Source: a virus
Strand: one strand, 5' to 3'
IMG/VR virus record: IMGVR_UViG_3300025158_000005
DNA length: 64,000 bases
The notes under the pieces are model-generated. The model had not been told where the DNA came from. It searched no databases and was given only the letters and a program-made list of their open reading frames with translations. A program made the position numbers and the translations under genes. Every line of letters begins with the position of its first letter. Position 1 is the first letter of the stretch. This document shows, piece after piece, positions 46,392-49,690 of this stretch.

Positions 46392-48488
46392 ATGGCTAAT
46401 ATGCAAGTGGGTATGGGCTCGGTAGAGACTAACTTGACCAACGCGGTTGAGTTTAGTATGTCGCAAACTAATGGTAAGAAGTTGATTGCCATGCTTTCAA
46501 ACTTCCTTTACACTGACAAGGAATACGCGGTTCTGTCGGAGTTGTCAGCAAACGGTGTTGATGCACACCGTATGGTCGGTAAGGAAGATGAACCTATTCG
46601 AATCACCATGCCAACACCTGTTGAGCCGGACTTGGTAATTCGTGACTATGGTCCTGGTATGTCTGAACCCGACTTGTTCAAGTTTCTGACCCAATTTGGC
46701 GAATCGTCTAAGCAAGATGACGCAAACGCCATCGGCTTTTACGGCATCGGTTCAAAGTCTGTTGCGTCTGTTTCAAGCACGTGGTCGCTCGTTTCCCATC
46801 ATAATGGAAAGATGATCAAACTTGAAGTTTTCGTAAACGGGGAAGGTAGTCTCGCGCTGTCAAAAGTCTTCGAAGGTAAGACCGAAGAAAGCGGTCTTGA
46901 AGTCCGAATTCCTATCGAAAAGAATAAGTTTCATCTGTGGGAGTCCGCTGCTCATAAGGCATTCAAGCACTATCGGGTTCTTCCGAAGTTCAACAGGAAT
47001 ATCGGCATTGTGAAGACCAGCTATAAAAAGCAAACTGAAAAGTATGGTATTCGGTCTGACTATGTCAGCGGCATCAACGTAATCACAACGATGCGCGAAT
47101 ATCCACTTGATGCGAAAAAGTTGGGCGGTTCAATCGATCAACCGTTGATTCTCAGTCTTTTCAAAAACAACATTGACCTGTTCTTCGAAACGAGTTCCAT
47201 TGACTTGGGCATTTCTCGGGAACAGATTCAATACAATACCAAGACCACAACGGCGATCATTAATCGTTTGAAGGAAATTGGTAGTGAAATGTTGTCGGAA
47301 ATCAAGGCTGCAATTTCTGTTGCTAAAAATGGCGTCGAGTATCGCAGTCTCGTAATGACTCAATGGAACAACTATCCTCATGATTTCGTCCGCGAGGCGG
47401 TAAAGGGAAATTCATACGGGGTTGTTGATCTTCCCAACGATTTTCGACGTTATTGTGTGACATGGAAACCTGGCGTAAGTCTGTCAATAGTGCATCGGGG
47501 CGAGTACAAGAACATCAACGACGCCCTCAGGAATTTCAACTGTTGGCGAACTTACGCGGTGAATGTTAGTGAATCGTTTGACCTTAATACTAACAAAGAT
47601 TATCGCACACTTTCCGTTGCGATTGATCAAATCGCACGAGTCAAGGTTGTCTTGCGTGAAGGTGTTCGGGATGCTGCCGCACGTGTAAAACAAGCTTACA
47701 AAGGATCGACCGACTTTTTCGTGATCATGGAAGAAAATCTGCTTGGTCCAGAGTTTCCTGTCATAAATGCATCGTCTTTGCCTAAGGTTCCTCGTACCAC
47801 AAAAAGACGCGGAACGTCTGATGATGATTATTACCTGCTTGATGGACGCATGTTTGTACGTATTACCAAGATGCAAGCAGAAGGATACACAGACAAGGTG
47901 TCATTGAACATCAGGGATGCTCGTTCTCGTGATGCTAATCCAGAATTCACGTCTACCGTCAAATTTCTACATAACCAAGGATATTATGTTATTGGTCACA
48001 AGGGCGAAGTTCTTGCTTTTGATGACCAAAAGACTGCAATGAAAAAGTTCATCGAAAACCTGAAAAATAGTCCAGCTCTTGCAGAGGATATCGAAAATGC
48101 TAAGATTAACTGGTTGGGTTCTGCTGTGCGCAACAATCGAGTGTTCGGCAATTTGACGTTTTACGACATAAAGTCAACTAAACTTGATGAAATCCTTAAA
48201 CCAGTTAAGGATATTATTTGCGTCGTAAAGGCGAAACACATTGATATTACTCGTCAATATGGTTCAACGACTGCAATTTTGGAGACGTTAGAACAAGCAT
48301 GTCGGATTTCAGGAGAAACGCTGGATGTTATTGATATCATTAATTACGAAAACATCGAAAAAATTTGCAAAGAAATCTATCCGATGTTACAATATATTGA
48401 ATTTGACAGGTACGTTGGTGGGACTATTTGGACTGATCGACGCGCGCATATTCAAGAGTATGTAAATCTAATCGAAAAAGGAGTTTGA
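46392..48488 (+). CDS. rIIA: rIIA-like protein (GHKL ATPase N-terminus)
   Basis: LYTDK..AVLSEL.AN.VDAH, IRDYGPGMS and IGFYGIGSKS motifs; adjacent to rIIB. Confidence 0.85.
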   Translation: MANMQVGMGSVETNLTNAVEFSMSQTNGKKLIAMLSNFLYTDKEYAVLSELSANGVDAHRMVGKEDEPIRITMPTPVEPDLVIRDYGPGMSEPDLFKFLTQFGESSKQDDANAIGFYGIGSKSVASVSSTWSLVSHHNGKMIKLEVFVNGEGSLALSKVFEGKTEESGLEVRIPIEKNKFHLWESAAHKAFKHYRVLPKFNRNIGIVKTSYKKQTEKYGIRSDYVSGINVITTMREYPLDAKKLGGSIDQPLILSLFKNNIDLFFETSSIDLGISREQIQYNTKTTTAIINRLKEIGSEMLSEIKAAISVAKNGVEYRSLVMTQWNNYPHDFVREAVKGNSYGVVDLPNDFRRYCVTWKPGVSLSIVHRGEYKNINDALRNFNCWRTYAVNVSESFDLNTNKDYRTLSVAIDQIARVKVVLREGVRDAAARVKQAYKGSTDFFVIMEENLLGPEFPVINASSLPKVPRTTKRRGTSDDDYYLLDGRMFVRITKMQAEGYTDKVSLNIRDARSRDANPEFTSTVKFLHNQGYYVIGHKGEVLAFDDQKTAMKKFIENLKNSPALAEDIENAKINWLGSAVRNNRVFGNLTFYDIKSTKLDEILKPVKDIICVVKAKHIDITRQYGSTTAILETLEQACRISGETLDVIDIINYENIEKICKEIYPMLQYIEFDRYVGGTIWTDRRAHIQEYVNLIEKGV

Positions 48489-48490
48489 AA

Positions 48491-49690
48491 ATGTCGTATT
48501 CTCACATTGTTACAAGCAATTATGTGTCTGTCATGAACTTGGAAACGGGCGAAGTGACGAAGTTTACAAGCGATCATCCAAAGTTCGCTGATGCAGTAGC
48601 AGGAATCAAGTCTGGTAATTACGAAGCCGTTACTAAAATGTCTGTCGCCAAGATCATCACCGATTATGGGTCAAAGTCTGGGGACGTTATCTCCGTCGCA
48701 AATGGGGTCGTTTACTACATGATGCCGAACGGCGAAAAGACGGAATTGCATAACACTATGACCACTCGTGTCTTGGCAATGATTCATGACGGTTTTGATG
48801 CTGCTCCTCTGGTTGCTTTCATGAACAACTTGATGTCCAATCCTTCAAAGGTTGCGGTCGATGAACTGTATTTGTTCTTGGAAGAAACCGAACTTCCCAT
48901 CACATCCGATGGGCATTTCATTGCCTACAAAATGGTTAACAACAATTACACTTCCATTCATGATGGCAAGTTTATGAACGCTGTTGGAACTGTTGTTGAA
49001 ATGCCTCGCAACACGGTGGATGACCGCCGTGAAAATACGTGTTCGCAAGGTCTTCACTTCTGTTCCAAGAACTATCTTGACAAGTATGGCAATGGTGATG
49101 GTGACCGACTGTTGCTGGTTAAGATCAATCCTGCGGATGTGGTGTCGATTCCTTCTGACTATAATAACGCAAAGGGTCGTGCTGCCAAGTATCTGATTTG
49201 GAAGGATATTACCGCACCTGGTTGGAAGCAAAAGTATCTGAACAAGGATTACAACGAGAAGTCTGTTGAAGTCATTGATGCTCCTGTTGAATCCCGCAAT
49301 ATCGAACTAACCAATACAGAATATCGTATTCTTGATTCCATCAACAATTTTATTGTTGATTATGGATATCTTAATGAAGATGAACTTGATACAACTTTCT
49401 TGGATCTTGGACTTGACAGACTTGATCTTGTTAAATTGATCATGAATGTCGAGGAAGACCTTGGTTTTGATGCTGATGATATTGATTGTACCGCATCTAT
49501 CGGAATGACGGTATATGAACTGATCAAAAAGATTACCGAGACTTACAAAAACGTGACTGCACCTCGGGCTGCCGTAGTATGCCCATCTTGCGGTAGTGGA
49601 TCGGTTCATAAGAAGGGGTTCAATTTTGACGGCACCAAGCAACGGTACAAGTGTAATCATTGTGGTCATAACTTCTACAAGGATATTTAA
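48491..49690 (+). CDS. rIIB: rIIB-like protein with an ACP-like and Zn-ribbon C-terminal extension
   Basis: NPS..AVDELY.FL, IT.DG.FIAYK, TCSQGLH and KINPADVVSIPSDY..KGR motifs; tail LGLDRLD and CPSC..YKC..C. Confidence 0.85.
   Translation: MSYSHIVTSNYVSVMNLETGEVTKFTSDHPKFADAVAGIKSGNYEAVTKMSVAKIITDYGSKSGDVISVANGVVYYMMPNGEKTELHNTMTTRVLAMIHDGFDAAPLVAFMNNLMSNPSKVAVDELYLFLEETELPITSDGHFIAYKMVNNNYTSIHDGKFMNAVGTVVEMPRNTVDDRRENTCSQGLHFCSKNYLDKYGNGDGDRLLLVKINPADVVSIPSDYNNAKGRAAKYLIWKDITAPGWKQKYLNKDYNEKSVEVIDAPVESRNIELTNTEYRILDSINNFIVDYGYLNEDELDTTFLDLGLDRLDLVKLIMNVEEDLGFDADDIDCTASIGMTVYELIKKITETYKNVTAPRAAVVCPSCGSGSVHKKGFNFDGTKQRYKCNHCGHNFYKDI

What the first reader, a model, noticed from the sequence alone, without database searches (positions are those of the whole stretch)
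49310..49690. rIIB fused to an acyl-carrier-protein mimic lacking the phosphopantetheine serine, plus a Zn ribbon
Seen: after the rIIB core comes an acidic ~80-aa segment, LDTTFLDLGLDRLDLVKLIMNVEEDLGFDADD...TVYELIKKI. This follows the ACP pattern F.DDLG.DSLD.VELVM.LEEEF...I.D....TV...I, but DSL is DRL (AGA at 49418, one base from a Ser codon). It is followed by CPSCGS..V.K.G....QRYKC..CG..F, an IS1 InsA-like Zn ribbon. Known: rII counteracts RexAB exclusion, and ACP is an interaction hub (AcpS, SpoT, MukB, lipid enzymes). Inference: an unmodifiable ACP decoy that tethers rIIB to, or titrates, ACP-binding host or defence proteins.
Basis: partly seen in the sequence, partly recalled or inferred. 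Interest (0 to 1): 0.8.

Follow-up and report, generated by a model that had tools for sequence, protein, structure and literature searches.

The report
rIIB with a serine-less ACP-fold module
A T4-like groundwater phage carries an rIIB gene with an extra acyl-carrier-protein-shaped domain that cannot receive its cofactor, followed by a zinc ribbon. The extra domain is real, but wild phages delete or swap it, so it is an optional add-on and no evidence shows it is a decoy.

Summary
The ORF at 48491-49690 (399 aa) has three parts: an rIIB core (aa 3-243), an acidic ACP-fold domain (aa ~277-352) and a CxxC...CxxC zinc ribbon (aa 362-399).

- **ACP identity:** Pfam PP-binding scores above its cutoff. 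A sequence search of solved structures returns only ACPs among its best 60, and nearly all the best fold matches of the predicted model are ACPs.
- **Missing serine:** Arg310 (AGA, 49418-49420) sits exactly on the phosphopantetheine serine. It is the same in every independent assembly that was checked, so it is not a sequencing error.

The decoy interpretation is not supported.

- **Relatives:** Among about 250 rIIB relatives, 14 carry an ACP domain at this position. Six keep the serine and score 43-57 bits. Eight have lost it (R, D, D, D, E, E, E, L) and score from below threshold to 36 bits.
- **Deletion allele:** In this phage's own population, a 177-nt in-frame deletion (49321-49497) removes helices I-III. 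Both alleles occur together in one groundwater sample, and rIIA does not change with the allele.
- **Cassette swap:** In a second lineage, only the ACP-like stretch has been replaced between otherwise ~98-100% identical genes.

My reading is that this is a non-carrier ACP-fold module that is dispensable and turns over quickly, sitting in rIIB's modular C-terminal tail. I found no such fusion in deposited phage genomes and no paper on it. Its function is unknown.

The parts
46392..48488 (+). rIIA (698 aa, N-terminal GHKL-type ATPase domain). Its stop codon lies just before the rIIB ATG.
   Evidence: PHROG rIIA E 5e-62 and PF13589 E 1.9e-9. The start was placed by comparison with the genes called on L001/L005.
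48491..49690 (+). rIIB gene, 399 aa plus stop
   Evidence: The same protein is on record in JGI, Logan and ENA on 13 contigs, and a near-identical variant (P0003) on 25.
48497..49219 (+). Conserved rIIB core (aa 3-243)
   Evidence: phrog_609 E 2e-66. PF26926 Phage_T4_rIIB is precomputed on homologues. Invariant columns are listed. No PDB fold match was found for the core.
49220..49318 (+). Linker (aa 244-276), with low model confidence around aa 266-270
   Evidence: pLDDT is below 50 at aa 266-270. This region varies in length and is acidic in relatives.
49319..49546 (+). ACP-fold domain without the phosphopantetheine serine (aa 277-352; 19 acidic and 5 basic residues)
   Evidence: PF00550 21.9/24.9 bits against 20.8. 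PDB phmmer best 60 are all ACPs. Four helices in the model. Nearly all top Foldseek hits are ACPs. Charge count.
49418..49420 (+). AGA = Arg310, at the position of the modified Ser in the ACP DSL motif
   Evidence: Alignment to DLGLDSLD. Conserved in all 9 full-length cluster variants. Unchanged in runs X10 and X21.
49321..49497 (+). 177-nt segment missing in a coexisting natural allele (340-aa rIIB). It encodes helices I-III of the ACP-like domain.
   Evidence: 8 protein variants; 15 contigs carry P0265 alone. DNA alignment. In run X18 both forms assemble as separate unitigs, at depth 11.6 (full) and 20.3 (deleted).
49574..49687 (+). C-terminal CxxC...CxxC zinc ribbon of the IS1 InsA / IS1595 type (aa 362-399)
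   Evidence: Sub-threshold Pfam hits, best PF03811 at 19.8-21.2 against 26.1. Strands at 372-377, 383-388 and 394-398. Atlas structural neighbours are IS1/IS1595/IS6 ribbons with low TM. Invariant in all 17 population variants. Shared by 29 Zn-only and 3 ACP+Zn relatives out of 242.

Best explanation
This is a true rIIB orthologue whose variable C-terminal tail carries two add-on modules: an ACP-fold domain that has lost the phosphopantetheine serine, and a conserved InsA-type zinc ribbon.

Shown or nearly shown: with Arg at the attachment site, the ACP-fold domain cannot act as an acyl or peptidyl carrier. It is an accessory module that can be lost, because wild phages of the same species delete it, and a second lineage swaps it as a cassette.

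Inferred: the module probably descends from a genuine, modifiable ACP domain of the kind that other rIIB lineages still carry. Whatever it now does does not depend on the serine. My best guess is that it is a folded, strongly acidic spacer or interaction surface between the rIIB core and the zinc ribbon. Its usefulness would then depend on the host or on context, which would explain why it turns over quickly. The core rII function would rest on the invariant core and the ribbon.
For: Domain identity and missing serine.

Survey of 257 rIIB relatives: 14 carry an ACP domain at the same position.
- Six have DSL/DSF and PF00550 scores of 42.8-57.1 bits (P0105, P0117, P0123, P0139, P0244, P0175).
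- Eight lack the Ser. Their scores are 36.0, 33.2, 22.9, 21.9, 21.0 and 17.8 bits, and two score below threshold.
- P0123 (Ser) and P0025 (Asp) share the window's core-ACP-Zn ribbon architecture.

Dispensability: the 340-aa allele lacks 49321-49497 but keeps the helix IV remnant, so it derives from a complete domain. Its flanks are >99.9% identical to the window, and rIIA shows no change that tracks the allele. Both alleles occur in one sample.

After the deletion, the helix IV remnant gained I337N, V341A or I345T in 6 of 8 variants. These are the i, i+4, i+8 hydrophobic positions, which are invariant in the full-length alleles. That pattern fits a bundle face left exposed by the deletion.

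Variation is concentrated here: 8 amino-acid changes in aa 277-348 against 5 in the other 327 residues (Fisher p = 5e-4). The zinc ribbon has none.

Second lineage: P0044 and P0055 (L007/L008) are ~98% identical in nucleotides across the core and ~99-100% across the tail, but only ~45-50% across the ~240 nt that encode the ACP-like domain.

On a core tree of 242 sequences, the presence of an ACP domain needs at least 12 gains or losses.
Against: - No experiment or partner prediction bears on what the module binds, if it binds anything.
- Concentrated non-synonymous change, such as 5 non-synonymous and 0 synonymous changes within 57 nt in L005, could reflect positive selection on a functional surface or plain relaxed constraint. 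The counts are too small to tell them apart.
- The Pfam match covers only the loop, helix II and the start of helix III. Helices I and IV rest on the model and on my own HMM.
- Contig depth is only a rough guide to allele frequency.
- The host is unknown.
Confidence: 0.55

Rival explanations
1. Decaying relic. The domain lost its serine, no longer does anything, and is being eroded and deleted. It persists only because the deletion has not yet spread to all phages.
For: - PF00550 scores fall in step with serine loss.
- The deletion allele is common: unitig depth 20.3 against 11.6 in X18.
- Amino-acid changes are concentrated in the domain.
- P0122 and P0006 look like degenerate remnants.
Against: - The serine-less domains still give a confident four-helix model.
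- They keep the amphipathic, acidic ACP pattern even after 70% divergence (P0044 against P0055).
- That pair shows replacement by another ACP-like cassette with borders that match the domain, not a loss.
- All nine full-length variants keep an intact reading frame.
Confidence: 0.25
2. The domain is an unmodifiable ACP mimic that tethers rIIB to ACP-binding host or defence proteins (AcpS, SpoT, MukB, lipid enzymes) or titrates them.
For: - The ACP fold and strong acidity are retained.
- The serine has been lost repeatedly across lineages without loss of the fold.
- Fast turnover is what an arms-race surface would show.
- RIIB is known to act as an anti-defence factor and as a trigger of defence (Wein et al. 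2023, PMC10312443).
Against: - A mimic of the highly conserved host ACP should stay close to the ACP consensus. Serine-less domains move away from it instead.
- Here the recognition helix carries both R for S and K for E. No other rIIB-ACP has K at that position. From general knowledge of ACP-partner complexes, these acidic helix II positions contact basic patches on client enzymes.
- The module is deleted in a large share of the natural population with no matching change in rIIA.
- No partner was tested.
Confidence: 0.12
3. Artefact. Either the ACP resemblance is a chance match of an acidic amphipathic helix, or the Arg is an assembly or sequencing error in an ordinary ACP.
For: The Pfam score is only just above the cutoff, and the match is partial.
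Against: - Three independent methods agree: Pfam, PDB phmmer with only ACPs in its best 60, and AlphaFold2 with Foldseek.
- Relatives carry textbook ACP domains at the same position.
- AGA is found in many assemblies from different samples.
Confidence: 0.02

Closest known systems
Phage T4 rIIB (Pfam PF26926 Phage_T4_rIIB; PHROG 609)
   Same: The conserved core (aa 3-243) matches. The gene sits directly downstream of rIIA in a T4-like replication-gene neighbourhood with the gp45 clamp and gp44/62 clamp loader.
   Different: rIIB genes of deposited phages align only to about aa 3-261 of this protein. They have no ACP-like domain or zinc ribbon that these searches could detect (0-1 of ~2,900 records cover 80% or more, and the one is not a fusion).
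Type II fatty-acid-synthase acyl carrier protein (AcpP; Pfam PF00550) and mitochondrial ACP (NDUFAB1)
   Same: The four-helix topology, the acidic character and the LGLDxLD-helix II motif are shared. These proteins are the best sequence and fold hits.
   Different: It has Arg in place of the phosphopantetheine Ser and Lys in place of the helix II Glu. It is fused inside a larger protein. It cannot be a carrier.
rIIB-ACP fusions with an intact serine in uncultured T4-like phages (P0105, P0117, P0123, P0139, P0244, P0175)
   Same: The ACP domain sits at the same position, after the core and an acidic linker. P0123 also ends in the same zinc ribbon. The rIIA-rIIB gene order is the same.
   Different: They keep DSL/DSF and score 43-57 bits on PF00550, so they may be modified by a host transferase (untested). 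Their C-terminal modules differ: P0105 and P0117 end in a helix-turn-helix-like segment.
IS1 InsA N-terminal zinc ribbon (PF03811) and IS1595/IS6 transposase ribbons
   Same: It has the pattern CPxCxS...KxG...QRYxCxxC and a three-stranded ribbon. These families give the best Pfam hits and are the Atlas structural neighbours.
   Different: The scores are below the Pfam cutoffs. No helix-turn-helix or transposase domain follows. The ribbon is the C-terminal end of a phage protein.

Membership tests
rIIB (Phage_T4_rIIB) | Profile match to the rIIB core | tested here: met
   phrog_609 E 2e-66 and four further rIIB PHROGs. Homologues carry a precomputed PF26926 hit.
rIIB (Phage_T4_rIIB) | Located immediately downstream of rIIA | tested here: met
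   rIIA at 46392-48488, rIIB ATG at 48491.
rIIB (Phage_T4_rIIB) | Needed for growth on Rex-type (RexAB) hosts | not testable with these tools
   Uncultured groundwater phage; host unknown.
Acyl carrier protein / PP-binding (PF00550) | Profile score at or above the Pfam gathering cutoff | tested here: met
   21.9 bits (whole protein) and 24.9 bits (C-terminal piece) against 20.8. The match is partial, profile positions 15-50 of 67.
Acyl carrier protein / PP-binding (PF00550) | Four-helix ACP fold | tested here: met
   AlphaFold2 helices at 275-287, 310-324, 333-336 and 341-355. Nearly all top Foldseek hits are ACPs, target TM 0.56-0.73. This is a prediction, not a solved structure.
Acyl carrier protein / PP-binding (PF00550) | Conserved Ser of the DSL motif at the N-terminus of helix II (the phosphopantetheine attachment site) | tested here: not met
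   Arg310 (AGA) aligns with the Ser. Conserved across assemblies.
Acyl carrier protein / PP-binding (PF00550) | Is phosphopantetheinylated and carries acyl groups | not testable with these tools
   Needs mass spectrometry or an AcpS/Sfp assay. Without the Ser it is expected to be negative.
IS1 InsA-type zinc ribbon (PF03811) | Two CxxC pairs on a beta ribbon | tested here: met
   C364/C367 and C388/C391, with strands at 372-377, 383-388 and 394-398.
IS1 InsA-type zinc ribbon (PF03811) | Profile score at or above the Pfam cutoff | tested here: not met
   19.8-21.2 bits against 26.1. Several other zinc-ribbon families score similarly. The relative P0025 reaches 24.5.

The most novel reading that the evidence does not exclude
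rIIB-ACP fusions may form a real but unrecognised class in which the rII system is physically coupled to the host's ACP, phosphopantetheine or membrane-lipid machinery. In the serine-bearing lineages a host transferase would modify the domain, which would dock rIIB onto acyl-ACP client enzymes at the inner membrane. Serine-less versions such as this one would be derived, unmodifiable binders or blockers of the same partners, evolving quickly in an arms race. If so, this would give the first molecular handle on where rII proteins act.
Probability: 0.12. Interest if true: 0.8.

Novelty: new variant of a known kind. Interest (0 to 1): 0.45.

Why it matters
How rIIA and rIIB work is still unresolved more than 60 years after they became a classic genetic system. 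Recent work shows that RIIB both counters RexAB and triggers CARD/gasdermin defence (PMC10312443).

This analysis shows that rIIB has a conserved core and a modular C-terminal tail that turns over quickly. The tail modules include zinc ribbons, helix-turn-helix-like ends, and ACP domains with or without the cofactor serine. Together they point to adaptor functions that could be tested.

For this window the practical message is more modest. The ACP-like module is real, but it is optional in nature and cannot act as a carrier.

Tried and rejected
- Near-identical DNA search in deposited phages: no match.
- tblastn of the tail alone against phages: only a 52-aa zinc-ribbon-like match inside a polB gene.
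- Word-based protein search with the 126-aa tail for free-standing relatives: nothing at E <= 0.01.
- Own-genome searches for PF00550 and PF01648 (a phosphopantetheinyl transferase): no whole genome is held. Whether the phage encodes its own transferase is therefore unknown. My ACP HMM finds no second ACP-like ORF in the window.
- Aligning the short tail with full-length relatives to fold it alone misplaced helix I. That alignment was not used, and the second folding job was not spent.
- Common origin of the rIIB ACP domains: the window's domain scores no better against other rIIB ACP domains (<= 22.6 bits) than against cellular ACPs (26.7 bits). Single or multiple capture cannot be decided.
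- Microhomology at the deletion: a TATCG pentamer lies at both borders but one base out of register, so simple slippage between repeats does not explain the junction.
- Metatranscriptome run X23: one contig covers 48557-49320 and stops at the allele branch point. This is not evidence of transcription.
- The complex prediction was not run, because I make no binding claim and no partner is well enough motivated.
- Literature searches for rIIB with acyl carrier protein, and for RIIB with RexAB, found no description of this fusion.

Full report
**What is there.** The window comes from a T4-like phage found in aquifer and groundwater metagenomes. Contigs carrying this gene reach about 165 kb. rIIA (46392-48488; GHKL ATPase domain; PHROG rIIA E 5e-62) is followed directly by an ORF at 48491-49690 (399 aa). 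Its ATG has an AAGGAG 8 nt upstream. PHROG rIIB profiles match aa 3-243 (E 2e-66). Downstream lie a DUF3310 gene, the gp45 clamp and the clamp loader.

**The ACP-like domain is real.**
- Pfam PP-binding (PF00550) scores 21.9 bits on the whole protein and 24.9 bits on the C-terminal piece, against a cutoff of 20.8. The match covers aa 296-329.
- phmmer of aa 279-356 against all PDB sequences returns only acyl carrier proteins among its best 60 (best E 5.7e-5). The alignment reads DLGLDRLDLVKLIM against DLGLDSLDQVEIIM. This puts Arg310 on the phosphopantetheine serine and Lys315 on the conserved helix II glutamate.
- An AlphaFold2 model built on 98 homologues (mean pLDDT 88, 73-89 across this domain) has helices at 275-287, 310-324, 333-336 and 341-355. 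This is the ACP topology. A three-stranded ribbon follows at 372-398.
- Foldseek against the PDB finds nothing for the core. Nearly all of its top ~50 hits are ACPs, with probability ~1.0, target TM of 0.56-0.73 and 72-95 aligned columns. The E-values are weak (about 0.01) because the query was the whole 399-aa model.
- The domain has 19 acidic and 5 basic residues.

**The arginine is not an error.** AGA lies at 49418-49420. All nine distinct sequences in the 90%-identity cluster keep DRL. They come from about 50 contigs in JGI, ENA and Logan. Contigs of runs X10 and X21 show no difference at that codon.

**The zinc ribbon.** C364/C367 and C388/C391 form the two CxxC pairs. The best Pfam family is InsA (PF03811), at 19.8-21.2 bits against a cutoff of 26.1, and several other ribbon families score close to it. 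Atlas structural neighbours are IS1, IS1595 and IS6 transposase ribbons, at low TM. The ribbon is invariant in the population. It is the typical tail of the window's clade: a well-supported clade of 32 sequences has 25 members with a zinc ribbon and no ACP domain.

**Survey of relatives.** I collected 257 rIIB homologues and searched their tails with an HMM built from eight rIIB ACP-like segments, the window's own among them. I then checked the hits with Pfam. rIIB tails are modular. After the core comes an acidic linker and then one of several end modules: a zinc ribbon, a recurrent RW(R)D..G..VSR segment, GYxDGKNKK-type repeats, or a helix-turn-helix-like end.

Fourteen proteins carry an ACP domain between the linker and the end module.

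| Status of the DSL serine | Proteins | PF00550 bits |
|---|---|---|
| Kept (DSL/DSF) | P0105, P0117, P0123, P0139, P0244, P0175 | 57.1, 50.4, 45.4, 45.4, 43.3, 42.8 |
| Lost | P0040 (D), P0189 (D), P0132 (E), window (R), P0052 (E), P0025 (D), P0044 (E), P0055 (L) | 36.0, 33.2, 22.9, 21.9, 21.0, 17.8, below threshold, below threshold |

- P0123 (Ser) and P0025 (Asp) have the same core-ACP-zinc ribbon order as the window.
- P0122 and P0006 look like remnants.
- The serine-bearing fusions sit in normal rIIA-rIIB contexts.
- On a tree of 242 cores, the presence of an ACP domain needs at least 12 gains or losses.
- Loss of the serine goes with drift away from the ACP consensus. The window is the only fusion with Lys at the helix II Glu position.

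**Population evidence in this phage.**
- A second protein cluster of eight 340-aa variants matches the 399-aa protein except for at most three residue changes and the absence of aa 277-336; 15 contigs were read for one of these variants alone.
- At the DNA level, 49321-49497 (177 nt) is missing.
- The flanks are >99.9% identical where the gene order is the same. rIIA shows no change that tracks the allele.
- The short allele keeps the helix IV remnant, which still matches the C-terminal part of my ACP HMM. It is therefore a deletion derivative, not the ancestral state.
- In groundwater run X18 the assembly splits exactly at this point into a full-length unitig (depth 11.6) and a deletion-junction unitig (depth 20.3), between flanks at about 39-42. 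Both alleles therefore coexist in one sample.
- In 6 of the 8 short variants the remnant carries I337N, V341A or I345T. These are hydrophobic positions spaced i, i+4, i+8, and they are invariant in all full-length variants. This pattern is expected if that face packs into a helical bundle in the long form and is exposed in the short form.
- One full-length contig (L005) has five non-synonymous and no synonymous changes within 57 nt of the domain, and one synonymous change elsewhere in the gene.
- Overall there are 8 amino-acid variants in aa 277-348 against 5 in the remaining 327 residues (Fisher p = 5e-4). The ribbon has none.

**A second lineage shows module exchange.** P0044 and P0055 are 98-99% identical in the core and nearly identical in the tail. 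Across the ACP-like domain they are only about 30% identical, and both lack the serine. At the DNA level (L007 against L008), identity falls from ~98% to ~45-50% over about 240 nt and then returns to 99-100%. This is a cassette replacement whose borders match the domain.

**Interpretation.**
- Shown: the fold assignment (by prediction), the missing serine, and the module's dispensability and rapid turnover in nature.
- Inferred: descent from a modifiable ACP domain, and a present role, if any, that does not need the cofactor. That role is most simply a folded acidic spacer or interaction surface in front of the conserved ribbon.

The pure-relic reading cannot be excluded. The ACP-decoy reading is disfavoured for three reasons:
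- A mimic of one of the most conserved bacterial proteins should stay close to it, and these domains do not.
- The recognition helix has two charge changes here.
- The module is optional in the wild.

**Novelty.** No deposited phage genome shows the fusion at the sensitivity of these searches. No record covers 80% or more of P0105 or P0123. One record does so for the window protein, but that match spans several genes at 27% identity. Full-text searches found no paper describing it. JGI's automatic annotation does call two such proteins 'acyl carrier protein'. The same stretch was flagged once more by this scan's first stage (e1-5826865).

Noticed in passing
rIIB homologues P0005-P0122: rIIB C-terminal tails are modular across uncultured T4-like phages. 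After an acidic, low-complexity linker come alternative end modules. The commonest are a recurrent unnamed segment of the form W..RW(R)D..G..VSR..V....G.....L.E, and GYxDGKNKK-type repeats. Pfam does not recognise either.
   Followed up: partly
L007:3830-4065 against L008: Two phages with ~98-100% identical rIIB flanks carry unrelated ACP-like cassettes (~45-50% nucleotide identity). The borders match the domain and both cassettes lack the serine.
   Followed up: yes
L005:3986-4042 (= window 49476-49532): There are five non-synonymous and no synonymous substitutions within 57 nt of the ACP-like domain, in an otherwise nearly identical gene (D329G, T334I, A335T, T340P, I348L). The cause is unexplained: selection, a short imported tract or clustered mutation.
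   Followed up: partly
L003 and L004, 4027-5397 (downstream of the 340-aa rIIB): In some contigs the DUF3310 gene and the small ORF downstream of rIIB are replaced by an HTH_17 gene and a DNA methylase. Their rIIA also has a two-Asp insertion. The same deletion allele of rIIB therefore sits in at least two mosaic backgrounds.
   Followed up: no
window 48485-48490: The mechanical ORF list starts rIIB at a TTG (48485) inside the rIIA stop region. The real start is the ATG at 48491, which has a Shine-Dalgarno sequence. The listed rIIA start (TTG 46374) is likewise upstream of the ATG at 46392 used on related contigs.
   Followed up: yes
P0105 and P0117 C-termini (L006:7240-7386): Serine-bearing rIIB-ACP fusions end in a helix-turn-helix-like segment (HTH_17, 18 bits, below threshold). 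Another relative, P0116, has the same end without an ACP domain.
   Followed up: no
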